Positions 9,915 through 37,633 of a stretch of DNA of 64,000 nucleotides are shown in pieces. The translations under genes and the position numbers were made by a program. Every line of letters starts with the position of its first letter. Within the stretch, counting starts at the first letter, position 1. The notes under the pieces were generated by a model. It saw nothing but the letters and a program-made list of their open reading frames with translations, made no database searches and had not been told where the DNA came from. This DNA is from a virus (Duplodnaviria > Caudoviricetes), in the IMG/VR virus record IMGVR_UViG_3300025120_010521; one strand, given 5' to 3'.

Positions 9915-10355
9915 TTAATAGGCAATCATTCTTTTAATATGATTTGGAACTTGTGAAACTGTAATTGTTGTTCCAATTTGACTAGTTATTGGACGATAAT
10001 GATTAACTAGTGTTAGTCCTAAATTTGAAAATTTAATTGGATCTGTTATACTATCAAATAACTCATCAAATTCAATATTTAAAGTTTTAACTGCATCAAT
10101 ACAAAGATATGCATAGGCTTTTGCAATTTGTCCATCCATTCCTGCCGCTGTAAAAATTCCAAGTATTCGATCATATTTTGCTGGAGATAGTTGCGACTGT
10201 ATTCCACCATATTGATTTAATATTAATGTTGTAACATCTTCTGCAGATAAATTTGGTTGTGCATTTTGTAACGCATTAAATACGTTTCCAAATAGAGAAA
10301 CTATTTGTGACTCTCCACCTACTCTTGCTATTAATTTTGTACTTTGATTAGCCAT
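9915..10355 (-). CDS. Hypothetical protein in tail operon
   Basis: 146 aa ORF coupled to the 10355..12037 gene. Confidence 0.5.
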   Translation of the reverse strand: MANQSTKLIARVGGESQIVSLFGNVFNALQNAQPNLSAEDVTTLILNQYGGIQSQLSPAKYDRILGIFTAAGMDGQIAKAYAYLCIDAVKTLNIEFDELFDSITDPIKFSNLGLTLVNHYRPITSQIGTTITVSQVPNHIKRMIAY

Positions 10356-12037
10356 TATCTATAACTTGCTCCTCCGCCTGTTGGCGAACTGTTGCCTTTT
10401 TTACGTGTTGCATTTCCATTTGCATTTTTAGTTATTTTGCCATTAACGACATTAGATTTTGATTTTGTTTCAACATAATTTTTACTATCTGGATTATTTC
10501 TTCCTGATCCAGCGGCCGCAGTTTGAAAAGCACTACCCCAGTTACCAGATACAAGTCCTGATGTTGCTGACTTTGTAGTTCCATATACACTTGAAGCTAC
10601 ATTTGAAATGGCGTCACTAAATGGTGTACTACTTATTTGACTTAGATCGGCACTCATTTTAGATAAATCACTTTTGAATCCACCGTACACAGAGTCGCCG
10701 CCATCTGTACCAGTATTAAACGATCCATTTGTACCTGCATTAGTTCCATTGCCAAATACTCTAGCTGATTGTTCATCTGGTATTGATGCAGACATTTTTG
10801 TCCAATCATAATCTGGATTTTCACTTGTACCATCACTACCTTCTGTTTCTGCTTGAGCTGTTGTAGGTGTGTCTGGCATTTTTAAACTGTTTTCAAATAA
10901 TTCGTCAAAGTCAACTGCAACATCATGTGATGATGCTGACATATCATAGTTTAGTGTTTCATATACAACTGTTTCATATGCAAATTGTAAACCAAGTTCA
11001 ACTGGTGTACTTGATTCATATGTTAGTACATCATGATCCATTGCAATAACTTTAGGATGTATAAATCTAATTAGATTATATTTTCCGCCATGTACAATAA
11101 ACAAGTCTAAACTTTTGATTGGATATGTATGACTTATTGTACTCGATTCAAGACCAAAGTTATGTTGATTTATAAACTGGTCTTCTCTTATTAGTGGATT
11201 TGGTGAATATAATCCTTGATTACTTTGTGTGTCTCCACCATACTTTTTACTTCTGTTTCTACCATCTTTTAAATTTAATTCGTACAAATATCTCCAAAAT
11301 TTTAATGCTGTATTATTCATTGTATCGTAAAAACGTACACTTACTGGATCATAATCAACACGTCTATACACATTTCTTTTTCTGTTGTATTGATTTAATG
11401 TGTCATATTGAAAATTAACTTTTGGTCCGTCAATTTGTTTTACGTTAAAAACTAAAGAACGTCTAACAGTTTCCATAACTTGTTGACGTTTTGATTTTAA
11501 ATCATTATGTTTTTTTGATAAATTCTGTTGGGCCATGGCATCTATACCGCCGCCACTATAACTATTAAAGTTGTTTGCATTATTACCAGCCGCTTGAATA
11601 TCTTTATCTAAATTTTCAATTTCAGAATCACTAAAAATTGTATCAAATTGACTATCAGCTGAAAATCTAAATGTTGCAACATACTCAAACTTCTGCCTTG
11701 GTACACCTGTCATTTGTACCATAGGTGCTTGTCTTAGAGTAAAATTATCTTGTGCTCTTGTAGGTGGTTGAATATTTGGTGTGCCTGAATCTGATGGTGA
11801 TCTACTAAATGGTTCTTGTGAACTAGTTTTTGCGTTAGCGTCAGCTTTACCTTTTAGGTTAGCAATAGCCGTGGCATTTTGATCTGCCATTATGTTTGCT
11901 AGTTGCTGATCGCCACCATCTCTAACTGCATTTATTTCTGATTCAGTGAACACCGAAGCAGTTGTGTCCATCGATGAAAACAACTTTTTCTGCTCCGGTG
12001 TTAATTTTTTTGGTTCAGTGTCCCAAGTATCTGCCAT
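10355..12037 (-). CDS. Tail-tube-fold protein (tube initiator or second tube-like) with long low-complexity extensions
   Basis: Central VKQIDGPK...DTLNQYNRKR...VDYDPVSVRFYDT...LQFAYE pattern typical of gp19/gp54-like folds; directly downstream of the tube gene. Confidence 0.55.
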   Translation of the reverse strand: MADTWDTEPKKLTPEQKKLFSSMDTTASVFTESEINAVRDGGDQQLANIMADQNATAIANLKGKADANAKTSSQEPFSRSPSDSGTPNIQPPTRAQDNFTLRQAPMVQMTGVPRQKFEYVATFRFSADSQFDTIFSDSEIENLDKDIQAAGNNANNFNSYSGGGIDAMAQQNLSKKHNDLKSKRQQVMETVRRSLVFNVKQIDGPKVNFQYDTLNQYNRKRNVYRRVDYDPVSVRFYDTMNNTALKFWRYLYELNLKDGRNRSKKYGGDTQSNQGLYSPNPLIREDQFINQHNFGLESSTISHTYPIKSLDLFIVHGGKYNLIRFIHPKVIAMDHDVLTYESSTPVELGLQFAYETVVYETLNYDMSASSHDVAVDFDELFENSLKMPDTPTTAQAETEGSDGTSENPDYDWTKMSASIPDEQSARVFGNGTNAGTNGSFNTGTDGGDSVYGGFKSDLSKMSADLSQISSTPFSDAISNVASSVYGTTKSATSGLVSGNWGSAFQTAAAGSGRNNPDSKNYVETKSKSNVVNGKITKNANGNATRKKGNSSPTGGGASYR

Positions 12038-12059: not shown

Positions 12060-12659
12060 TTATAAACCTGTTCCAGTACCAAATGTTAATGGTGCACGTG
12101 GAAATAATTCGCCGCCGCCTTCGCCAAAGTGTGTTGCATTATCATATCTCATAGTCATGATAACTTGCACTGGTTCTGATACCGCATAATCACCGTCTGA
12201 ATAATCTACGTTTTGTAAGAAACAACCTTCTAGATTCCATTGTTCTAATTCAGCATCGCTTGAACCATCTAAAATTTCAATTTTAGTTGTAAATTTATAT
12301 TGAGTTCCGCTGGTTGGACCAGTTTGCTCAAAGTGGTTCATTTGTTTCTGAACTTGTTGACCTGTTAATCTAGAGATACTGTTGTTCATATCATCACGTA
12401 AAGTAAGTGTGATTGGCTCCCATGTGTGTTTGCCCATTAAGTATGCTACTGAGTTGTAAACGTGTACAGGAACTTCTTCGTGTGTTACTTTTGGTCTTGT
12501 TACGTTCATAACCTGTTGAGTTAAATCAACTGGGTTAGCACCTAAGTTACCAAAACCTGTAAAACGTACTCTAAAACGATATTTAAGTTTAGGCTGTAAA
12601 ATACCGCCTCTACCTGTAGCACCGTCTATTGGAACGCCAAATTTGTTTAATGTAGCCAT
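12060..12659 (-). CDS. 19: Tail tube protein, gp19-like
   Basis: QPKLKYRFRV, GKHTWEPITLTLRDD, WNLEGCF, MRYDNA; immediately downstream of the sheath gene. Confidence 0.85.
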   Translation of the reverse strand: MATLNKFGVPIDGATGRGGILQPKLKYRFRVRFTGFGNLGANPVDLTQQVMNVTRPKVTHEEVPVHVYNSVAYLMGKHTWEPITLTLRDDMNNSISRLTGQQVQKQMNHFEQTGPTSGTQYKFTTKIEILDGSSDAELEQWNLEGCFLQNVDYSDGDYAVSEPVQVIMTMRYDNATHFGEGGGELFPRAPLTFGTGTGL

Positions 12660-12798: not shown

Positions 12799-15789
12799 TT
12801 AATTATAGCTCATATTCTCACCAGTGTTCTTTATTCTGATCGGAATATATATAAACTCTGCCGCTTTCGCTGGCTGTATAGCTATATCGATCCACATCTG
12901 GTTAGCATCAATACGTGTTGCTGTGTTGTTTGATTCATCACAAACAACTAAGAAGTCGTATAATGCTCTTTTTGAAGCCAAGTCTGCTAAAAATCTTTCA
13001 AAAGTATCAGACACTTGATCTCTTGTCATTCTATCATTTAATTCAAATAAGAATGGTTTTGCAAGTTGATCAAATTGATATCTTAAGTAACAAATTAATC
13101 TGGCTACGTTAACTCTATCAAGTGCTGATGCTGTTGAGTGCAATGTTTTTTGACCAAACACTGTTAAACCTCTGTTAGGCATAAACGCAATTGGGTTAAC
13201 TTTTTTAGAGTATAATGTATCTCTTGAACCTTCACTTAATACAACTGAATTATATTCACCTGTTGCCGGGTCAATATAACCAACTGATGATGCATTTGAT
13301 ACTAAACCTCTTTGATAACCTGCTGGAGCAAACCACTGGAATGCCGCGTTATCACTTGAAGCAATAGTTCTTAATGCTACATGTGAAGCTGGAACAACAA
13401 CGTTGTTACCTGCTAAATCAGTTGATAGTGCTGATGGATAGTAAACAGCTGAGTAAGTGTTGCTTGTTACTAGTCCGTCTTCACCGTTAGTTGTTGCGTT
13501 TGCTGAGTTTGATATCCAATTAGATACTTCTGAAGGAGTTTTTAATCTAAATGGAGCATCAAGAATAACAAATGCTGTTTCTTTTCTTGCTGTGTTAAGT
13601 GCAATCATTTCATCATATGTTTCTGGGTAACCAGGACATGCAATTAAATTAAAGAATCTTGATTCTGCTTTAATTTCATCGTTGCTAACAAATGCTGATT
13701 GTAGTGAAGTTACTACAACTTGTCTTTGTGCTTTTCTACCCATGTATGGTGAACCATCTGGTTTATTACCAGCCGCATTAATCCAAATTGGACCAATGTC
13801 TGCACTGTTTACAACATAAGATGTTTTATATCTTTTAACATTATAACCAGACACTCTTGTGTTAAACAATAGTGTACCAGCCGCATAGTTTGCCGGATCA
13901 ACTGCATCTGAATCAAATGATGCGTATGTTGAACCCCAACCTACTGCCGCGTCTGTTGTACCTGCTGGGTTACCTACTGCATCACCGAACACAATGCCTG
14001 AAGCTGATGATTGATCAGTATTATCTAATAATACCCATGCACTTGTACCTGTATTATATTTGTAAATTTTTGGATATGCTTCTAGCTCGTTTGAGTCAAT
14101 CCAAATGTCACCATTTTCTAGTGCTGTACCATCTGACTGTTTAGTTGGTTCAGTTGATACCATTTGTAAGTCTCTTATACCTGCCGCTTCACCGTTTGGT
14201 CCTGTGTTAACATTACCTGCTGTAAAGGCGTCTTTTGAGTTAGCATAAGCAAACCATTTCATTGTACCACCGTCATTTTCAGCAATATACATATCTGCTG
14301 TTAAGTTAGTGTCGTACCATAGTGTGCCATCTACAGGTGAACTTGTTGGTGCACTTGCTGATGCTTCGTATGATAAGTTGCCCCAAATTGAAGCCATGTA
14401 CCATGAATCAGAACCTGAAGCCATATTATCTGTAAAGCCTAAGTTTGCAGTTGTTGTACCAATCACATTACCTGCTGTTGCTGTATCTTCAATCCAAATG
14501 TTTTTACCATTTGTTCTTTCAAGTTTTAAGTACTCTTTTGTACCTGAACTTGCTTCAATTGATGCTACAACTGTTTTAGCAGTTAATGATGCATCGTTGT
14601 TAATACCAGCAACTATTTCTGCTAGTGTTACATTTGAAGCCGCACCGCCTGCCGCTGTTACTGTTACATCAACGTTACAAATGTTCATTTTAAGACCAGT
14701 TTGACCTGCTGTTAAGTCAATACCGTTACCTGAAAGGTCAGCTGTTCCTGTAGTTGATGTTGTAGTTGCTGTACCTCTTAATTTGATCTCGTATGCTACT
14801 TCTGGTGTTGAGTTGTTTGCTGTTTGTTTGTATGTTGCATTGTCAATTCTATCATTGTTCCATGCCGCATCCATGTCATCATCAAACATTGTGTAAAGTG
14901 AATTTGCCGCTGGTGTTAAGGCTGTAACAGCATTGTCATCATCAGCATATAATGGTGATGAAATTGTTGACCATGTTGATGTTGATGTTGAATAGTATTT
15001 TACTACTACGTTAGCACCGCCACCTACTGTTGTTGTCTTAATCCAAACTGAACCTGCAGTTGAGGCACTTGGTGCCGCACCTGAACCTGGTTGCATATAC
15101 ACAACTGGCGTACCTGATTTTGCAGTTACCCATGTATCCGCACCTACTTGGTACCATTGTCCTGAAACTTTTTCCCAAAGTTTTGCCGGAGTTGCTGATG
15201 CAACTACAACAAAGTTACCGTTGGCACCGTATGATGATTTTGGTGATTTTTCAGTATCGTTGTTTACGTTTGATGTTGCTGATGTACTAGGTGTATCAGT
15301 TAGTACCGCTGGAGTAATTTTGCTCCATGCTGTACCGTTTGTTTGGTATACACCCCAATTAGTTGATGCTGTATCTAACCAGTACGTACCATTTGCTGGT
15401 GCACTAGTTGGAACAGATGTTGAACCTGTAAGTTCTGCTGAATCTACATCAGCACGAACTACGTATGCTCTATTCGAAATTCCTAAATATGAATATGCGG
15501 CTAATAAACCGTATTCATTTCTTTCATCCCCTGGTAACATTGTTGAACCAGCTGAATAAAATGTTGGTGTACCGAATGTTGATAACAGTTCTCTCTGTGA
15601 ACCAATTAAATACGCTTTACCCACGTTAGCACTGGTAGTACCTACTGCTGTAGAACCTGTAGAACTTGGATCAGCTTTATTTTGTGCTGATGCCACTACA
15701 AATAATGGTACTGTACCTTGTGCCGCGCCGGCGTAAAACGATTCATCAGTTACTGTAACTGAAACACCCGGTGAAACTAAATCTGGCAT
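12799..15789 (-). CDS. 18: Tail sheath protein with large inserted domains, gp18-like
   Basis: N-terminal LVSPGVSV, C-terminal KKVNPI, GQKTL, LDRVNVARL, CDESNNT and IQPAKAAEFIYI; 996 aa. Confidence 0.93.
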   Translation of the reverse strand: MPDLVSPGVSVTVTDESFYAGAAQGTVPLFVVASAQNKADPSSTGSTAVGTTSANVGKAYLIGSQRELLSTFGTPTFYSAGSTMLPGDERNEYGLLAAYSYLGISNRAYVVRADVDSAELTGSTSVPTSAPANGTYWLDTASTNWGVYQTNGTAWSKITPAVLTDTPSTSATSNVNNDTEKSPKSSYGANGNFVVVASATPAKLWEKVSGQWYQVGADTWVTAKSGTPVVYMQPGSGAAPSASTAGSVWIKTTTVGGGANVVVKYYSTSTSTWSTISSPLYADDDNAVTALTPAANSLYTMFDDDMDAAWNNDRIDNATYKQTANNSTPEVAYEIKLRGTATTTSTTGTADLSGNGIDLTAGQTGLKMNICNVDVTVTAAGGAASNVTLAEIVAGINNDASLTAKTVVASIEASSGTKEYLKLERTNGKNIWIEDTATAGNVIGTTTANLGFTDNMASGSDSWYMASIWGNLSYEASASAPTSSPVDGTLWYDTNLTADMYIAENDGGTMKWFAYANSKDAFTAGNVNTGPNGEAAGIRDLQMVSTEPTKQSDGTALENGDIWIDSNELEAYPKIYKYNTGTSAWVLLDNTDQSSASGIVFGDAVGNPAGTTDAAVGWGSTYASFDSDAVDPANYAAGTLLFNTRVSGYNVKRYKTSYVVNSADIGPIWINAAGNKPDGSPYMGRKAQRQVVVTSLQSAFVSNDEIKAESRFFNLIACPGYPETYDEMIALNTARKETAFVILDAPFRLKTPSEVSNWISNSANATTNGEDGLVTSNTYSAVYYPSALSTDLAGNNVVVPASHVALRTIASSDNAAFQWFAPAGYQRGLVSNASSVGYIDPATGEYNSVVLSEGSRDTLYSKKVNPIAFMPNRGLTVFGQKTLHSTASALDRVNVARLICYLRYQFDQLAKPFLFELNDRMTRDQVSDTFERFLADLASKRALYDFLVVCDESNNTATRIDANQMWIDIAIQPAKAAEFIYIPIRIKNTGENMSYN

Positions 15790-32322: not shown

Positions 32323-34035
32323 TTATTGTTCTGGTGTAGTGTCTGTATCTGGTGTTAGTGGTGAATCTAATCCTGCGTCGCCGGCATCGCCAGCAGGTGC
32401 ATCATCTAATCCTTCAGTATCATCTGAAGCTGGCATTGGTGCCGCTCCTACATCTGAAAGGCCTCCACCTCCTACATCGTCACCTTGTGCTGGTGGTTCA
32501 GTAGCATTAGCATTTTCTTCTGCCCAGAGTTTTTCGTTTTTGTAAATTTCGCCTTCATCAAGTCCAAGATAACGTTGCATTGCAAAACGTTTAGAAATAA
32601 ATGGAACTTGCTGTACCTGTGTAAAGATACTAACCATTTGATTATCAATTTCAACTTGTCTATACTTGCCAAAGTTTTGTGGTTCATTAAATTGTATTTC
32701 AAATGATCCTGAATCAATTTCAATACCTCTATGCTTTAAGAACATTTTAAATTCTCTATCAAGAGCAGGCATAACCATTGTTTGTAAACGTTGACAAAAT
32801 TTTGTAAATCTAAATTCTTGTATGTATGCTGTACCAACTCTACCATCAGTAAATGCCGAACCGGCATCATCTGGGGATGATGGCAAATAACTTGATGGAA
32901 TTCTTAAACCTTTCATCAACTTATTATTAAAGTATTTTAAGTCGTCAATTTCACCTAAGTTTTGACCGCCTGGTAATGTTTCAACTTTTGATCCTCTACC
33001 CTCAGCCGTTTGTGCAAAAAAGTAATCTTCAATTTGTGATAATGGGTTATAAGCGGCATCCATAATGTTTGCGCCACCACCTGTTTTATTTGGAATACGT
33101 TTTTGATGTATTTCATTTTTAACACGTTCAATAAATGCCATTGCTTTATTGCTAGGCATATTACCTACATCAATATAAAACACTCTACGTTCTGGTGCTC
33201 TTTGAACTCTGTAAATAATAATAGCATCTTCTAATAATTCTTTTTGTTTGTACACTTTAAATATTGCTTCTAGTACTGAAGTACCAAAAGGCCAAAATCT
33301 ATCCATGCCTTCTGACAATGATATATGTGCAATATGTGAAGCATCAACAGGTGTTGTCATTACTTCCATATTAAATCTACCAGCTTGTGAAGTTGTAGTT
33401 CCGCTAGTCATACCTTTGTATTTTGCATCACCGCTAAACGGCATATTACCACTTTGGTATGCTGTTGGAGCCGTGTACTGATATTGACTCATTGTTGTTA
33501 AGTTTAAATTTTGTAAATTTAAATCTAAATCTCTAATGAAGTATGCTTCTGGCTTTTTACCTTTACCTTCATTAACAACTATTTTTTCAATTTTTGCATG
33601 ATCAACCCAAAGTAATTTATATGTCTCTGGATCTCTAACTAATACCTGATCACCATACTTGATTACATTTCTAAAAAGTTTAAAACATCTTTTATCCCAA
33701 TCGTTAACACTTGCCCATTGTTTGATTGATTGATTTAAAATTTCTGTTTCTGTATCAGTTGGTTTGTCTTTATAAAAGATTTTAAATGGAACACCTGTCT
33801 TTGGGTCATTTTGAGTTGAAAATTCTGCAATAGTATCAAGTGCCGCATTTATTTCTGTGTCAAGATCCATTTGATCATATTGATAATAACGCTCAATACG
33901 ATTTGGCTGACCTGCATATACTTCTGGTAGCCATGAGCTGTATTTTGAATTTGATGTTTCACCAAATGAACTACCTACTGGACTTTGCTGTCCTAGTTTA
34001 TTTTCATATGTAGTAAAGTGTTTTTTCCAACTCAT
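32323..34035 (-). CDS. 20: Portal protein, T4 gp20-like
   Basis: LEDAIIIYRVQRAPERRVFYIDVGNMP, EDYFF...EGRGSKVETLPGGQNLGEIDDLKYF. Confidence 0.96.
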   Translation of the reverse strand: MSWKKHFTTYENKLGQQSPVGSSFGETSNSKYSSWLPEVYAGQPNRIERYYQYDQMDLDTEINAALDTIAEFSTQNDPKTGVPFKIFYKDKPTDTETEILNQSIKQWASVNDWDKRCFKLFRNVIKYGDQVLVRDPETYKLLWVDHAKIEKIVVNEGKGKKPEAYFIRDLDLNLQNLNLTTMSQYQYTAPTAYQSGNMPFSGDAKYKGMTSGTTTSQAGRFNMEVMTTPVDASHIAHISLSEGMDRFWPFGTSVLEAIFKVYKQKELLEDAIIIYRVQRAPERRVFYIDVGNMPSNKAMAFIERVKNEIHQKRIPNKTGGGANIMDAAYNPLSQIEDYFFAQTAEGRGSKVETLPGGQNLGEIDDLKYFNNKLMKGLRIPSSYLPSSPDDAGSAFTDGRVGTAYIQEFRFTKFCQRLQTMVMPALDREFKMFLKHRGIEIDSGSFEIQFNEPQNFGKYRQVEIDNQMVSIFTQVQQVPFISKRFAMQRYLGLDEGEIYKNEKLWAEENANATEPPAQGDDVGGGGLSDVGAAPMPASDDTEGLDDAPAGDAGDAGLDSPLTPDTDTTPEQ

Positions 34036-34114: not shown

Positions 34115-36478
34115 CTACCCACCATTTACTTCATCAACTGCTTTTTTAGTACCACCAGTATTACTAGCAATTGCACTTAATAATCTAATTGATGTACTAT
34201 AAAATTCACCTTCTGACGTTTTTGTTGGATCACTTGATCCTGTCATTGGAAGATATTGATTCATTACACGCATTTTAGCCTGTGATAAACGTTCTGGATC
34301 TAGCATGTCTGTAGAAGTAGCTTTATTATTAGTGCCCATATTGTTAGCACTGTCATTCATTGATGCAACAATATCTGCACCGCTTGCCCCAACTGTTTTG
34401 TAACCTATACTTTCGTCAAGTTGTGCTTTGTTTACATCAAGATATGTTACTGCTTGTTGTGTTAATATGTCACGAAGTGCATCTATTAATTGTTGATTGC
34501 CTGATTCGTTAACTTTTTTAAGCATAGCATCAAAAGAACCTTTTCTAGTTTGAAGAACTTCACCAGTCTCGATGTCTCCTTTAGGAAACATACTTGCAAA
34601 CTGTTTTGCCAACATTGGTGGTAATTCATTTTGTACACCTGATACAATGTCATTATCAAACGACATTCTAGTTCTACCTTCTTTTGAATATCTTTTAAGG
34701 TAACTTTCATTAAACATTCCTGCGTTTGCTAGAGCGCCGCCGCCAGTTAATGATCTAATTTGATTTTCGCCCATGGACATGTTGGCTTGGTGAATTGTAC
34801 CGGCACCGCCTGCAAATCCTGGTAATGCTAGTTTCATTCCTTTTATGATTGCTCCAGTAATCATGTCTGCCATTAATGCTAAAGGTGCCGCCAATGCTTT
34901 AATCATTGCTTGACCTAAAGTTAAACCTTGGAACTCGCCAATAAAATTCATAAATCTATTAACAAGATTAGCAATTTTATTTGCAATTGAACCTGCATTT
35001 TCTACAAGTTTTTTTGCAAGGTCAATACCCATAGTAGTAATACGTTCCATTGCTCCACTTATTGCACCTAGTATTCTATCATTGCCAAACAGTTCAGTAA
35101 AGAATTTGTTAAACGCAACTGATAATTTTGCAGTAACACGTTCAAAGTTTATAAATGCTACAGATAATTTGTCAATCTGTGATTCTCGTCTTAATTTTTG
35201 TAAATCTTTGTACTGTTCTAATGCACCTTTTTTCTGTATCTCTTGAACTTGATTAATCAGTGCAATTTGTTGTCTTGCCGCGCCTGAGAACTGTGTGTTA
35301 GAACGTTCAATAAGACTTAATCTTTCTCTTTCAGCATCAGATGTATTTGCAATTTCTGTTATTAGTTGACTAGTTGCTTTTGCGGCACCTTGATCGTCTA
35401 AACTATCTATATTATCAATTAGTGAACTTAATGAGTTATATAATTTTCTATTTACTGCTAATAATTCTCTACCAGCTTCTGTGAAAAATAATCCACCTCG
35501 ACCGTATGCAGTTGTAAATGTTGTTGCAAGTTGATCACCAAACTCAGTACCAAGTCCTGCAAACATACCTGTTACTGTTTGTGCGGCTCTAAGTACTCTG
35601 TCTTGTACTATTGCTGGTAACACATTTAGTTTATTTGTAAATGCTTCAACAGCCGTTGATCCTTTAATAACTGCCGCAATTTGATCTCTACTTACATTTG
35701 CTAACTGTGAAAATGCTGTAATATTCTGTGCATATCTCACAACCATCTCTTCTAATTGGTCATTACTTTTTCCACCAAGCATACTTGCTGTTCTTAATTG
35801 GTCCATAAAGTCACCAGTGTATTCAGTCAACTCTGCTAGACTCATACCCAACATACCTTGAGCTTGTAAGTTATCTCTAATTTGTACATTTAAATCTGAA
35901 AATGCTTGGGCACCAATAATACCAACTGACGTTGAAAACTTTCCAAGTAATTCTGTATATTGTGCAATACCCATTTCAGCCGCCACTGCCGCTTTTGCTA
36001 ATCCTAATGAACCTTGTTCCATTCTAAAGCCCATTGCAAATACTTGTCTAAATGAATCTGAAAACTGTTTTAATCTTCCAATAACAAAACCAACTGCCGC
36101 GGCAAAGCCACCAATTACAGCACCAGCTATTCCTAGCTTGCCAGCAAATCGTTGTACTGCCATGTTTACTGATTTAAATGGTGTTGACACATTCTTTTTA
36201 ACTAAATCTTTAGTATAATCTCCACCTTTTTTATTCAACTGTGTAACTAGTTTTTTTGAATTTTCTGAACTATTTTTATTAAGTTGTTCAATCCTAGCAA
36301 CTACGTCTTTTAAGTGTTTTGTTTGTTTTTCTTGTTCTTTTGAATCTTTTGTGTCAGATTTCTTCATTGCACCTAAGGCTACTGCAATCTTTTTTTGCGT
36401 TTCCTCAGTGGCCCATTTAGGAAGACCAGAATCGTCCCAATTTATTTGATCTATAGTAATTTTGTCGCCGTCAGCCAT
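34115..36478 (-). CDS. Probable tape measure protein
   Basis: 787 aa, helical and Ala/Gly-rich with hydrophobic GIAGAVIGGFAAAVG segment; N-terminal P.WATE.T motif; beside the gp26-like gene. Confidence 0.65.
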   Translation of the reverse strand: MADGDKITIDQINWDDSGLPKWATEETQKKIAVALGAMKKSDTKDSKEQEKQTKHLKDVVARIEQLNKNSSENSKKLVTQLNKKGGDYTKDLVKKNVSTPFKSVNMAVQRFAGKLGIAGAVIGGFAAAVGFVIGRLKQFSDSFRQVFAMGFRMEQGSLGLAKAAVAAEMGIAQYTELLGKFSTSVGIIGAQAFSDLNVQIRDNLQAQGMLGMSLAELTEYTGDFMDQLRTASMLGGKSNDQLEEMVVRYAQNITAFSQLANVSRDQIAAVIKGSTAVEAFTNKLNVLPAIVQDRVLRAAQTVTGMFAGLGTEFGDQLATTFTTAYGRGGLFFTEAGRELLAVNRKLYNSLSSLIDNIDSLDDQGAAKATSQLITEIANTSDAERERLSLIERSNTQFSGAARQQIALINQVQEIQKKGALEQYKDLQKLRRESQIDKLSVAFINFERVTAKLSVAFNKFFTELFGNDRILGAISGAMERITTMGIDLAKKLVENAGSIANKIANLVNRFMNFIGEFQGLTLGQAMIKALAAPLALMADMITGAIIKGMKLALPGFAGGAGTIHQANMSMGENQIRSLTGGGALANAGMFNESYLKRYSKEGRTRMSFDNDIVSGVQNELPPMLAKQFASMFPKGDIETGEVLQTRKGSFDAMLKKVNESGNQQLIDALRDILTQQAVTYLDVNKAQLDESIGYKTVGASGADIVASMNDSANNMGTNNKATSTDMLDPERLSQAKMRVMNQYLPMTGSSDPTKTSEGEFYSTSIRLLSAIASNTGGTKKAVDEVNGG

Positions 36479-36575: not shown

Positions 36576-37418
36576 ATGAGTGAAAACAAATTATCAAAAT
36601 ATTATAGAGCACCAAAACTGTATGTTCGTGTTCCGAGTCAGGGTGCATTTAATCCTGAAGTAGAATCAGCAATGGGTGGAGAACTAGCTGTTATGGCTAT
36701 GACTGGCCGTGATGAAACTATGATCAAAAATCCAGATGCATTACTTAACGGAGAAGCAGTAACATCAGCAATTAAAAGTTGTGTTCCAGGTATTCAAGAA
36801 CCAAAAGACATGCCAATTACTGATATTGATACATTGTTAATTGCCATTAAAATTGCTACCACAGGAGAAGAGCATGAAGTAAGTGCAACTTGTCCTAAGT
36901 GTAAAACTGAATCTAGAGGAGTTGTTAATTTAAGAAATATTTTACCAACTGCTAAATTGCTTGATTCAGAGTATCCTGTAAAATTAGATACAGGAGTAAC
37001 TGTATATGTTAGACCATATACTTTTTCAATGCAGACAGAAGCGGCATTGGCGGCATTTGACGAAACTAAAACACTTCAAAATTTGACACAGGAAAAAGAA
37101 ATTAATTCTGAAAGTATGTCAATTTATAATAAGAGTTTTAGAAGAATGGCAGATATGAGCGTATCGTTATTAGGTAGAAGTATTATCAAAGTTGTTACAC
37201 CAGAAGGTGACGAAGTTAGTGACCCAAATGAAATATTTGCGTTTATCCAAAACATAGATTCAAATGCGGCGAAACAAATTGACGAAGTACTTGCAAAAAT
37301 TAATAGTTTAGATATCGATAAGAAAATTGAAATGACTTGCGGCAAAGAAACATGTGGCAATGTATGGACATCAGAAATTGATTTCAATCCTACGGATTTT
37401 TTCGCAGTTGGCTCTTAA
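36576..37418 (+). CDS. 26: gp26-like baseplate hub/tail assembly chaperone
   Basis: YYRAPKLYVRVPS, MTGRDE...NPDALLNGEA, D.DTLLIAIKIAT.G, CPKC and C..C motifs, ends TDFF. Confidence 0.75.
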   Translation: MSENKLSKYYRAPKLYVRVPSQGAFNPEVESAMGGELAVMAMTGRDETMIKNPDALLNGEAVTSAIKSCVPGIQEPKDMPITDIDTLLIAIKIATTGEEHEVSATCPKCKTESRGVVNLRNILPTAKLLDSEYPVKLDTGVTVYVRPYTFSMQTEAALAAFDETKTLQNLTQEKEINSESMSIYNKSFRRMADMSVSLLGRSIIKVVTPEGDEVSDPNEIFAFIQNIDSNAAKQIDEVLAKINSLDIDKKIEMTCGKETCGNVWTSEIDFNPTDFFAVGS

Positions 37419-37633
37419 AGGCTGAGCCTGACCAAATAAATGTCTACTTTGAAAAGTTGGCTAAAGAACGTGATACTATAAAACAACAGATAACCGAAAT
37501 CTGTTGGTACATGCGTGGTTCCCTTACTTGGGAAGAAGCATGGTCTCTTTCCGAAGTCGATCGAAATGACTTAATTAAATTTGTCGGTGAAAATGCCGAG
37601 CGATTTAAAAAGTCTGGACAAGTAGTTGTTTAA
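37403..37633 (+). CDS. -1 frame extension of the gp26-like gene (gp51-like); not in the ORF track
   Basis: -1 frame is open 37382-37633 (RSWLLKAEPDQINVYFEKLAKERDTIKQQITEICWYMRGSLTWEEAWSLSEVDRNDLIKFVGENAERFKKSGQVVV); first ATG only at 37511; slippery heptamer T TTT TTC at 37397-37403. Confidence 0.7.
   Translation, partial: RSWLLKAEPDQINVYFEKLAKERDTIKQQITEICWYMRGSLTWEEAWSLSEVDRNDLIKFVGENAERFKKSGQVVV

What the first reader, a model, noticed from the sequence alone, without database searches (positions are those of the whole stretch)
37380..37633. Probable programmed -1 frameshift in a T4 gp26-like gene: lambda G/GT-style tail chaperone pair
Seen: the gp26-like ORF ends ACG GAT TTT TTC GCA GTT GGC TCT TAA. 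The heptamer T TTT TTC (37397-37403) fits X XXY YYZ. After a 6-nt spacer there is a hairpin GGCTC-N9-GAGCC (37410-37428). The -1 frame is open from 37382 to 37633, has no ATG until 37511 and no clear SD. A shift gives a ~352 aa product beside the 280 aa one. Established: lambda gpG/gpGT and P2 E/E' (slippery T-run) tail chaperones are made by -1 frameshifting next to the tape measure gene; T4 has separate gp26 and gp51 genes. Inference: this gp26/gp51-like pair is a frameshifting tape-measure chaperone, which would link T4-like hub assembly factors to the classic chaperone mechanism.
Basis: partly seen in the sequence, partly recalled or inferred. Interest (0 to 1): 0.75.

Follow-up and report, generated by a model that had tools for sequence, protein, structure and literature searches.

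The report
Frameshift in phage baseplate-hub chaperone gene
One tail-assembly helper gene of this uncultured marine giant phage very probably makes a short (31 kDa) and a long (40 kDa) protein because some ribosomes slip back one base on a conserved TTTTTTC run; phage T4 encodes the same pair as two genes (26 and 51), so T4-type phages may follow the lambda G/GT rule after all.

Summary
The gp26-like ORF (36576-37418, Pfam PF12322) carries an in-frame T_TTT_TTC at 37397-37403. The -1 frame is open to 37633. It has no conserved start.

Evidence for a programmed -1 frameshift:
- All 92 non-identical related loci keep the heptamer. The preceding codon always ends in T, although it encodes six different amino acids.
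- The -1 peptide is conserved from the slip site onwards (FFR-x-[RWK]-LL). The 0-frame tail is not conserved.
- Natural one-frame proteins of 320-355 aa match the predicted 352-aa product across the junction.
- Lineages with such a long form also carry a separate short paralogue, as T4 does (gp26, gp51).
- Seven complete frameshift-type genomes each have one PF12322 gene. T4 has two.

Weaker points:
- The hairpin exists, but it is no more stable than shuffled sequence.
- The tape-measure-chaperone role is inference only. I found no fold or sequence link to lambda-type chaperones. The tape-measure-like gene is divergent rather than downstream.
- No product has been seen.

I found no paper or record that marks the slip. 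The same frameshift was noted earlier in this scan in many other genomes.

The parts
36576..37418 (+). gp26-like baseplate-hub assembly gene, 0-frame product (short form, 280 aa, 30.8 kDa)
   Evidence: PF12322 T4_baseplate E 1.1e-19 and phrog_150 'baseplate hub' E 1e-23. Four invariant Cys (C106, C109, C255, C260) in alignment A2.
37397..37403 (+). slippery heptamer T_TTT_TTC (X_XXY_YYZ), proposed site of tandem -1 slippage of tRNA-Phe
   Evidence: Present in phase in 91 of 92 non-identical related loci; the other has TTTTTTT. The preceding codon is always NNT while encoding N, S, D, H, R or T.
37416..37418 (+). 0-frame stop TAA, 4 codons after the heptamer; ends the short form
   Evidence: In relatives the 0-frame tail after FF is 1-11 residues long (4 in 60 of 92, 1 in 23) and is not conserved.
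37397..37633 (+). -1 frame read after the slip (FF RSWLLK...VVV, then TAA at 37631-37633); it replaces the 4-residue 0-frame tail AVGS with 76 residues, giving the long form (352 aa, 39.5 kDa)
   Evidence: Homologues lie in the same -1 arrangement in all loci examined. Conserved motifs: FFR-x-[RWK]-LL and WYMRG. The natural one-frame protein P0076 matches the window in two pieces that change frame at 37400-37403.
37410..37428 (+). hairpin GGCTC-N9-GAGCC, 6 nt after the heptamer; possible weak stimulator
   Evidence: MFE -9 kcal/mol, z -0.64. Both arms are invariant in 8 clade members while the spacer and one loop base vary. The same hairpin at the same spacing occurs in Salicola phage SCTP-2. 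It cannot be separated from the conserved peptide WLL-x-AEP that it encodes.
34115..36478 (-). divergently transcribed 787-aa tape-measure-like virion protein (context)
   Evidence: phrog_1293 'tail length tape measure protein', E 2e-4. Its N-terminal motif is shared with the PA5oct structural protein in the same position, E 4e-6. The RaK2 counterpart is annotated as similar to a tape measure protein.

Best explanation
The gp26-like gene is decoded in two ways.

Most ribosomes read T_TTT_TTC in frame and stop four codons later at UAA (37416). This gives a 280-aa short form.

A fraction of unknown size slips. With tRNA-Phe on UUU in the P site and UUC in the A site, both tRNAs re-pair one base back on UUU UUU. 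These ribosomes continue in the -1 frame to 37633. This gives a 352-aa long form with the same 276 N-terminal residues plus a 76-residue helical tail.

The two forms correspond to T4 gp26 (short) and gp51 (long), the two non-virion 'hub assembly chaperones'. T4 encodes them as paralogous genes.

Inferred, not shown: the fixed short-to-long ratio matters for building the central hub around the tape-measure protein. This is analogous to lambda gpG/gpGT.
For: 1. The heptamer is kept in phase in 92 of 92 non-identical loci (91 TTTTTTC). These include cultured phages whose proteins are only 26-42% identical to the window's. The wobble base before it is always T across six amino acids.

2. Eighty of these loci were retrieved through the distal WYMRG motif, so their junction was not preselected.

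3. Selection acts on the -1 frame from the slip site itself. R at +1 occurs in 90 of 92 loci, L at +4 in 88 and L at +5 in 85. The 0-frame tail varies in length and sequence.

4. There is no conserved start. The first ATG in the -1 frame is scattered between codons 3 and 38.

5. Ten representative proteins of 320-346 aa carry the extension in one frame, with a junction F-R-x-x-L and no T run. Three more of 351-355 aa were found with one of them. P0076 aligns to the window with the frame change at 37400-37403.

6. In the two lineages whose one-frame long form I checked for context, a separate short PF12322 gene lies directly upstream of it. T4 has gp26 plus gp51, and both match PF12322 end to end.

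7. The long-form profile aligns with the T4 gp51 family end to end, tail included: hhalign E 2.6e-5, probability 75%.

8. Seven complete frameshift-type genomes each have one PF12322 gene. T4 has two.

9. DNA contigs from two other studies cover the junction without any difference.

10. Of 150 in-frame slippery heptamers in the window, this is the only one followed by a long open -1 frame.
Against: - No protein, ribosome-profiling or reporter data exist; the efficiency is unknown.
- The downstream hairpin is no more stable than shuffled sequence.
- Across 86 loci the downstream structure is only 1.5 kcal/mol better than the gene background. Wilcoxon p is 0.002, and the loci are not independent.
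- FF is also a conserved protein motif: T4 gp26 ends EFFELL, encoded by the non-slippery TTC TTT. Part of the T-run conservation is therefore protein-level.
- The gp51 tail matches the extension only weakly when compared alone (E 0.008, probability 5%).
- The role with the tape measure is untested.
Confidence: 0.86

Rival explanations
1. The downstream frame is a separate small gene of about 58-75 aa. It would be translated on its own from TTG 37457, ATG 37511 or a non-canonical start, for instance by termination-reinitiation after the gp26-like stop.
For: - Gene callers and GenBank records annotate such small ORFs: Phosso CDS 319 with an ATGA overlap, 121Q gp595, Atu_ph07 gp687, XaC1_326, SCTP-2 87.
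- About 60 short ORF calls exist in the protein library.
- Eight of 92 loci have an ATG at codon 3.
Against: - Start positions are scattered and not conserved. In 26 of 92 loci the first ATG is the M of WYMRG at codon 38, which would delete half the conserved domain.
- The -1 peptide is conserved upstream of every candidate start, right from the heptamer.
- One-frame homologues are fused proteins.
- I saw no Shine-Dalgarno-like sequence before 37457 or 37511.
Confidence: 0.05
2. The long form arises by transcriptional slippage. RNA polymerase would add one U in the T6 run, giving an mRNA subpopulation that encodes the same fusion protein.
For: - A homopolymer run lies at the junction.
- The protein product would be identical (D-F-F-R...).
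- One distant relative has a longer run, T8 (L016).
Against: - Known productive slippage runs are usually 8-9 bases or longer (my own knowledge).
- Here the run is held at exactly T6 followed by C in 91 of 92 loci, and always in the X_XXY_YYZ phase. Selection for polymerase slippage would favour longer runs and would not need a phase.
- Contigs cannot show rare RNA variants, and the RNA-library contigs did not reach the junction.
Confidence: 0.06
3. It is an artefact or decay: a homopolymer sequencing error in a single long gene, or a recently broken gene.
For: Homopolymer runs are error-prone in some sequencing chemistries.
Against: - The same T6 and frame arrangement appear in 92 non-identical loci from many studies and in finished genomes of cultured phages.
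- Independent DNA contigs from 2014 and 2020 are identical across the junction.
- The 0-frame stop always follows within 1-11 codons.
Confidence: 0.01

Closest known systems
Phage T4 gp26 (208 aa) and gp51 (249 aa), baseplate hub assembly chaperones (Pfam PF12322; Leiman et al. 2010, PMC3004832)
   Same: - Same protein family: the window ORF scores E 1e-19, and T4 gp26 and gp51 both match the profile end to end.
- Same pair of forms, a short one and a long one with a C-terminal helical tail.
- The gp51 family aligns end to end with the long form.
- Shared junction motif F-[KR]-x-LL-x-x-P-[DE]-x-I.
- The gene lies head to head with the hub/tape-measure gene block in both.
   Different: - T4 uses two paralogous genes and no frameshift. 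Its FF is encoded by the non-slippery TTC TTT, and gene 25 follows.
- Here one gene with a slippery site gives both forms.
- The window protein is about 70 residues longer in the shared part.
- The tail-only match to gp51 is weak.
Lambda gpG/gpGT and the conserved -1 frameshift of tail assembly chaperone genes (Levin 1993; Xu, Hendrix and Duda 2004; also P2 E/E+E'; reviewed in Atkins et al. 2016, PMC5009743)
   Same: - A -1 slip near the 3' end of a non-virion tail-assembly gene gives a short product and a C-terminally extended one from a single start.
- The site is conserved although the proteins diverge.
- A tape-measure-like gene is the immediate neighbour.
   Different: - No detectable sequence or fold relation.
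- The protein is twice as large and has a four-Cys zinc-ribbon-like motif.
- The gene is not between the tube and tape-measure genes. It is divergent from the tape-measure-like gene, and the tube gene lies at 12060-12659, 24 kb away.
- In the model of a one-frame homologue the tail has high confidence within a single well-defined fold (pTM 0.90). This suggests it packs on the body rather than hanging on a linker; I could not inspect the coordinates.
- Binding partners are unknown.
E. coli dnaX tau/gamma -1 frameshift
   Same: A tandem-slippage heptamer makes two forms of one protein, and a 0-frame or -1-frame stop lies close by.
   Different: - In dnaX the shifted frame ends at once, giving a shorter protein, and strong flanking stimulators exist (an upstream SD-like element and a stable hairpin).
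- Here the shift lengthens the protein, and no strong stimulator was found.

Membership tests
Programmed -1 ribosomal frameshift cassette | X_XXY_YYZ heptamer in the 0-frame phase | tested here: met
   T_TTT_TTC at 37397-37403.
Programmed -1 ribosomal frameshift cassette | Overlapping -1 ORF that is long, lacks its own conserved start and is conserved from the slip site | tested here: met
   The -1 frame has 78 codons. R at +1 in 90 of 92 loci, L at +4 in 88. First ATG scattered between codons 3 and 38.
Programmed -1 ribosomal frameshift cassette | Heptamer conserved at nucleotide level among diverged homologues | tested here: met
   Kept in 92 of 92 non-identical loci. The preceding codon is always NNT for six amino acids.
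Programmed -1 ribosomal frameshift cassette | Trans-frame product corresponds to a real protein architecture | tested here: met
   One-frame homologues of 320-355 aa. tblastn changes frame at 37400-37403. Alignment A4 is continuous across the junction.
Programmed -1 ribosomal frameshift cassette | Downstream stimulatory RNA structure 5-9 nt after the heptamer | tested here: inconclusive
   A hairpin is present at a 6-nt spacing, but z is -0.64. It is invariant in the clade. It is not conserved in distant relatives, which show only a weak overall tendency to fold.
Programmed -1 ribosomal frameshift cassette | Frameshift product observed | not testable with these tools
   Needs mass spectrometry, a Western blot or a reporter assay.
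T4 gp26/gp51 family (PF12322 T4_baseplate) | Match to the Pfam profile above the curated cut-off | tested here: met
   71.4 bits against a cut-off of 24.5; profile positions 20-206 of 219.
T4 gp26/gp51 family (PF12322 T4_baseplate) | gp51-type C-terminal tail homologous to the -1 extension | tested here: inconclusive
   The end-to-end profile alignment includes the tail: E 2.6e-5, probability 75%. The tail alone gives E 0.008, probability 5%. A single T4 sequence gives no match.
Lambda gpG/gpGT-type tail assembly chaperones | Two products from one start through a -1 shift near the 3' end | tested here: met
   By comparative inference only.
Lambda gpG/gpGT-type tail assembly chaperones | Gene lies between the tube gene and the tape-measure gene, directly upstream of the latter on the same strand | tested here: not met
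   The gene is divergent from the tape-measure-like gene at 34115-36478(-). The tube gene is at 12060-12659.
Lambda gpG/gpGT-type tail assembly chaperones | Sequence or fold similarity to known chaperone families (gpG, XkdN/YqbN and others) | tested here: inconclusive
   No chaperone Pfam family among 72 members. Foldseek against PDB and against Swiss-Prot models gave nothing. YqbN 3klu_A scored Z 6.7 within the noise for one model and was absent for the window's own central domain. The N-terminal domain alone was not folded.
Lambda gpG/gpGT-type tail assembly chaperones | Binds the tape measure protein; the tail binds the tube protein; absent from virions | not testable with these tools
   Needs pull-downs and virion proteomics.

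The most novel reading that the evidence does not exclude
The PF12322 (gp26/gp51) proteins are the missing tail assembly chaperones of T4-type myoviruses. They would be an unrelated protein family that converged on the G/GT solution. The shared body would hold the tape measure protein during hub assembly. The frameshift-added tail would give a minority form a second activity, such as docking to the hub or tube initiators. T4's genes 26 and 51 would then be a frameshift resolved by duplication. On this reading the textbook exception, 'G-T frameshifting is conserved in long-tailed phages, except T4', disappears.
Probability: 0.35. Interest if true: 0.85.

Novelty: new variant of a known kind. 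Interest (0 to 1): 0.7.

Why it matters
Programmed -1 frameshifting in tail assembly genes is regarded as nearly universal in long-tailed phages, with T4 as the stated exception (Atkins et al. 2016, PMC5009743).

T4 gp26 and gp51 have been 'hub assembly chaperones' of unknown mechanism for decades (Leiman et al. 2010, PMC3004832).

This locus and its relatives show that most giant T4-like phages make the gp26-like and gp51-like forms from one gene by a conserved slip. Three things follow:
- It explains why T4 has two paralogues.
- It makes the stoichiometry idea testable in cultured phages (PA5oct, RaK2, 121Q, Atu_ph07).
- It corrects the annotation of many small 'hypothetical' ORFs called downstream of baseplate hub genes. 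Five of the seven GenBank records I read call one, and about 60 such calls are in the protein library.

Tried and rejected
- Complex prediction of the tape-measure-like protein (residues 1-715) with the short form: score 0.01, no verdict. It says nothing either way.
- Fold searches for a known fold or a chaperone fold found only generic helical hairpins with Z below 8. This covered Foldseek against PDB, VIA-align against 48,161 chains with the long-form model and with the window's central domain, and AlphaFold Swiss-Prot.
- The YqbN (XkdN-type chaperone) row, Z 6.7, did not recur. I dropped it.
- PDB sequence searches with the short form and with T4 gp51 gave no hit.
- Pfam, PHROGs and NCBIfam gave nothing for the extension alone.
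- Close homologues of the extension carry no precomputed Pfam domain.
- hhalign with the single T4 gp51 sequence was uninformative.
- BLASTP of the 787-aa neighbour against T4 gp29 showed no significant similarity.
- A profile scan of IMG/VR with the diverse N-domain alignment failed, because no stretch was conserved enough.
- No whole genome is held for the window. I therefore could not check directly for a second PF12322 gene elsewhere in this phage. There is none in the 64-kb window and none in its complete 328-kb relative.
- RNA-library contigs cover parts of the ORF but stop before the junction. They show nothing about slippage and do not prove transcription.
- No sigma-70-like promoter or + strand terminator signal beyond chance lies between 36400 and 37800.
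- Six literature searches found no report of this frameshift.

Full report
OBSERVATION

- The ORF 36576-37418 (+, 280 aa) ends ACG GAT TTT TTC GCA GTT GGC TCT TAA.
- T_TTT_TTC occupies 37397-37403 in the X_XXY_YYZ phase.
- GGCTC-N9-GAGCC follows after 6 nt (37410-37428).
- The -1 frame is open from 37382 to 37633. It has no ATG before 37511 and only a TTG at 37457.
- A slip would give a 352-aa protein (39.5 kDa) beside the 280-aa one (30.8 kDa), with junction ...TDFF/RSWLLK.

A heptamer alone means little in this AT-rich DNA. The 68 ORFs of 100 aa or more hold 150 in-frame X_XXY_YYZ sites. Only this one is followed by a -1 frame open for 60 or more codons.

WHAT THE GENE IS

The ORF matches Pfam PF12322 (T4_baseplate) at E 1.1e-19 and phrog_150 'baseplate hub' at E 1e-23. 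The window is a piece of an uncultured marine giant T4-like phage.
- The portal gene (gp20-like) is at 32323-34035.
- The sheath gene is at 12799-15789 and the tube gene at 12060-12659.
- No phage record is close at the DNA level.

Head to head with the gene lies a 787-aa protein (34115-36478, - strand).
- It has a weak tape-measure hit (phrog_1293, E 2e-4).
- Its sequence is long and mostly low in complexity, with Gly/Ala-rich hydrophobic stretches.
- Its counterpart in the same position is a virion structural protein in PA5oct and RaK2.

COMPARATIVE EVIDENCE FOR THE SLIP

tblastn with the -1 peptide finds homologues directly after the gp26-like gene in several cultured giant phages: Atu_ph07, Phosso, PA5oct and its relatives, SCTP-2, Stenotrophomonas CM1/RAS14 and the RaK2 group. 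In every record where I checked the frame, it is the -1 frame. Reading the junctions shows xxT TTT TTC in each one read.

Twelve IMG/VR loci found with the N-domain show the same arrangement. So do 80 more found through the distal WYMRG motif of the extension, a search that does not select for the junction.

Over 92 non-identical loci:
- 91 have TTTTTTC and one has TTTTTTT.
- The codon before is always NNT, although it encodes N, S, D, H, R or T.
- The -1 frame is conserved from the first shifted codon: R in 90 of 92, then L at +4 in 88 and L at +5 in 85.
- The 0-frame tail after FF is 1-11 residues of variable sequence.
- The first ATG in the -1 frame falls anywhere from codon 3 to codon 38.

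So the extension is under protein-level selection from the slip site itself and has no start of its own.

THE FUSION IS A REAL ARCHITECTURE

An exhaustive phmmer search of the extension against 1.84 billion representative proteins gave 84 hits. Most are short ORF calls of 43-98 aa. Ten are proteins of 320-346 aa that carry the extension at their C-terminus in one frame. Their junction reads F-R-x-x-L and has no T run. Three further one-frame proteins of 351-355 aa turned up when one of them was used as a query.

These proteins align continuously with the 0-frame and -1-frame halves of the frameshift loci. One of them, P0076, matches the window in two tblastn pieces that change frame at 37400-37403, inside the heptamer.

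I looked up genomic context for two of these one-frame proteins. In both, a separate short PF12322 gene lies directly upstream.

T4 has the same two-gene solution.
- gp26 (208 aa) and gp51 (249 aa) both match PF12322 end to end, and gp51 has about 48 extra C-terminal residues.
- A profile of the long form aligns with a profile of 20 gp51 homologues from end to end, tail included: E 2.6e-5, probability 75%.
- The tail alone aligns at the right place but weakly (E 0.008).
- T4 gp26 ends EFFELL*, encoded by the non-slippery TTC TTT.

A six-frame PF12322 search finds one gene in each of seven complete frameshift-type genomes and two in T4. The seven are three IMG/VR genomes with terminal repeats, including the window's 328-kb relative, plus Atu_ph07, PA5oct, RaK2 and 121Q. 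One gene with a slip therefore stands where other lineages have two genes.

STIMULATORS

The hairpin is present, but at -9 kcal/mol it is no better than shuffles (z -0.64).

In the window's own clade of 8 sequences, the stretch from the heptamer to the end of the hairpin is the least variable part of the gene. There is one variable column in 15, lying in the loop, against 9-11 upstream. The 6-nt spacer varies. The arms, however, encode the conserved W-L and E-P, so RNA and protein constraints cannot be separated.

More distant relatives have different downstream hairpins. Over 86 loci the 45 nt after the site fold 1.5 kcal/mol better than the rest of the gene (p 0.002; the loci are not independent).

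I saw no SD-like element upstream. I treat a stimulator as possible but not shown.

RELIABILITY OF THE SEQUENCE

DNA contigs of two other studies (2014 and 2020) cover the junction without a single difference. RNA-library contigs match parts of the ORF but not the junction.

STRUCTURE AND FUNCTION

AlphaFold2 of the one-frame homologue P0076, using an alignment that includes the window's two halves, gives pLDDT 95.4 and pTM 0.90. The model has:
- an alpha/beta body with two CxxC pairs (four invariant Cys);
- a long helical hairpin;
- a C-terminal tail of four helices (266-275, 279-308, 313-318 and 321-341), the third very short.

BFVD finds the fold in many myovirus 'baseplate hub' proteins. 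Nothing in the PDB or in Swiss-Prot models stands out. No chaperone Pfam family appears. So I cannot file the protein with lambda-type chaperones.

What it does is inferred from T4, where gp26 and gp51 are listed as hub assembly chaperones and gp51 is required but absent from particles (PMC3004832). The link to the tape measure rests only on gene neighbourhood and on the fact that the T4 hub contains gp29.

RIVALS

- Separate initiation of a small protein does not fit the scattered starts, the conservation upstream of them, or the fused homologues.
- Transcriptional slippage would give the same protein. It is disfavoured by a run held at exactly T6C and always in phase, but it is not excluded.
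- Sequencing error is excluded by the number of independent sequences.

KNOWN OR NEW

The Atkins et al. 2016 review states that G-T frameshifting is conserved among long-tailed phages 'except T4' (PMC5009743). Six full-text searches found no report of a slip in gp26-like genes. None of the seven GenBank records I read joins the two frames.

Earlier agents of this scan reported the same frameshift in many other genomes. I re-tested their main claims here. I could not reproduce one of them, that a domain folds like known tail chaperones, with the models I had.

VERDICT

The programmed -1 frameshift is very probable (about 0.86). The gp26/gp51 equivalence is well supported. The tape-measure-chaperone mechanism is a reasonable analogy and remains untested.

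Noticed in passing
L098:1200-1300: In a lineage with two genes (a short paralogue followed by a one-frame long form), the short paralogue still ends ...aaT TTT TTC act gat aac aaa taa. Its -1 frame stops after two codons. This may be a relic of the slippery site left after duplication. This short paralogue has also lost the four cysteines.
   Followed up: partly
L001:1630-1752; L004:1510-1740; L101:1437-1646; L102:1473-1631; L103:1243-1437: GenBank and RefSeq records of Atu_ph07, Phosso, 121Q, XaC1 and SCTP-2 annotate the extension as a separate small 'hypothetical protein' with arbitrary starts. PA5oct and RaK2 leave it unannotated. None of the seven records I read has a joined CDS.
   Followed up: yes
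window 36431-36370 (- strand; residues 16-36 of the 787-aa protein): The N-terminal motif D-x-x-[LV]-P-x-W-A-x-EET-x-x-KI of the tape-measure-like protein is the only part that BLAST finds shared with the PA5oct counterpart (E 4e-6). It may be a docking site for a conserved partner.
   Followed up: no
P0100-P0191 (T4 gp51 homologues): Precomputed Pfam labels give gp51 homologues a second family, PF28602, besides PF12322. It did not appear in my scan of T4 gp51 against the local Pfam copy. It may describe the gp51 C-terminal tail. If so, scanning the -1 extensions against it would be a direct test.
   Followed up: no
L016:1260-1300: A distant relative has AAATTTTTTTTC (a T8 run) in place of T6C, and a shorter, more diverged extension of 64 codons.
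   Followed up: no
L103:1195-1235: Salicola phage SCTP-2 (extension 32% identical) has the same GGCTC-N9-GAGCC hairpin 6 nt after the heptamer. The arms encode the conserved W-L and E-P, so RNA and protein constraints cannot be separated.
   Followed up: partly
window 37484-37506 (- strand): A terminator-like hairpin with a T tail lies on the minus strand, inside the extension coding region and about 120 nt past the end of the convergent PDDEXK endonuclease gene (37630-38127).
   Followed up: no
window 10355-12037 (-): A 560-aa protein next to the tail tube gene (12060-12659) has a short tube-like segment (residues 193-252; phrog_13438 and phrog_4542). It may be a tube paralogue or tube initiator with large additions.
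   Followed up: no
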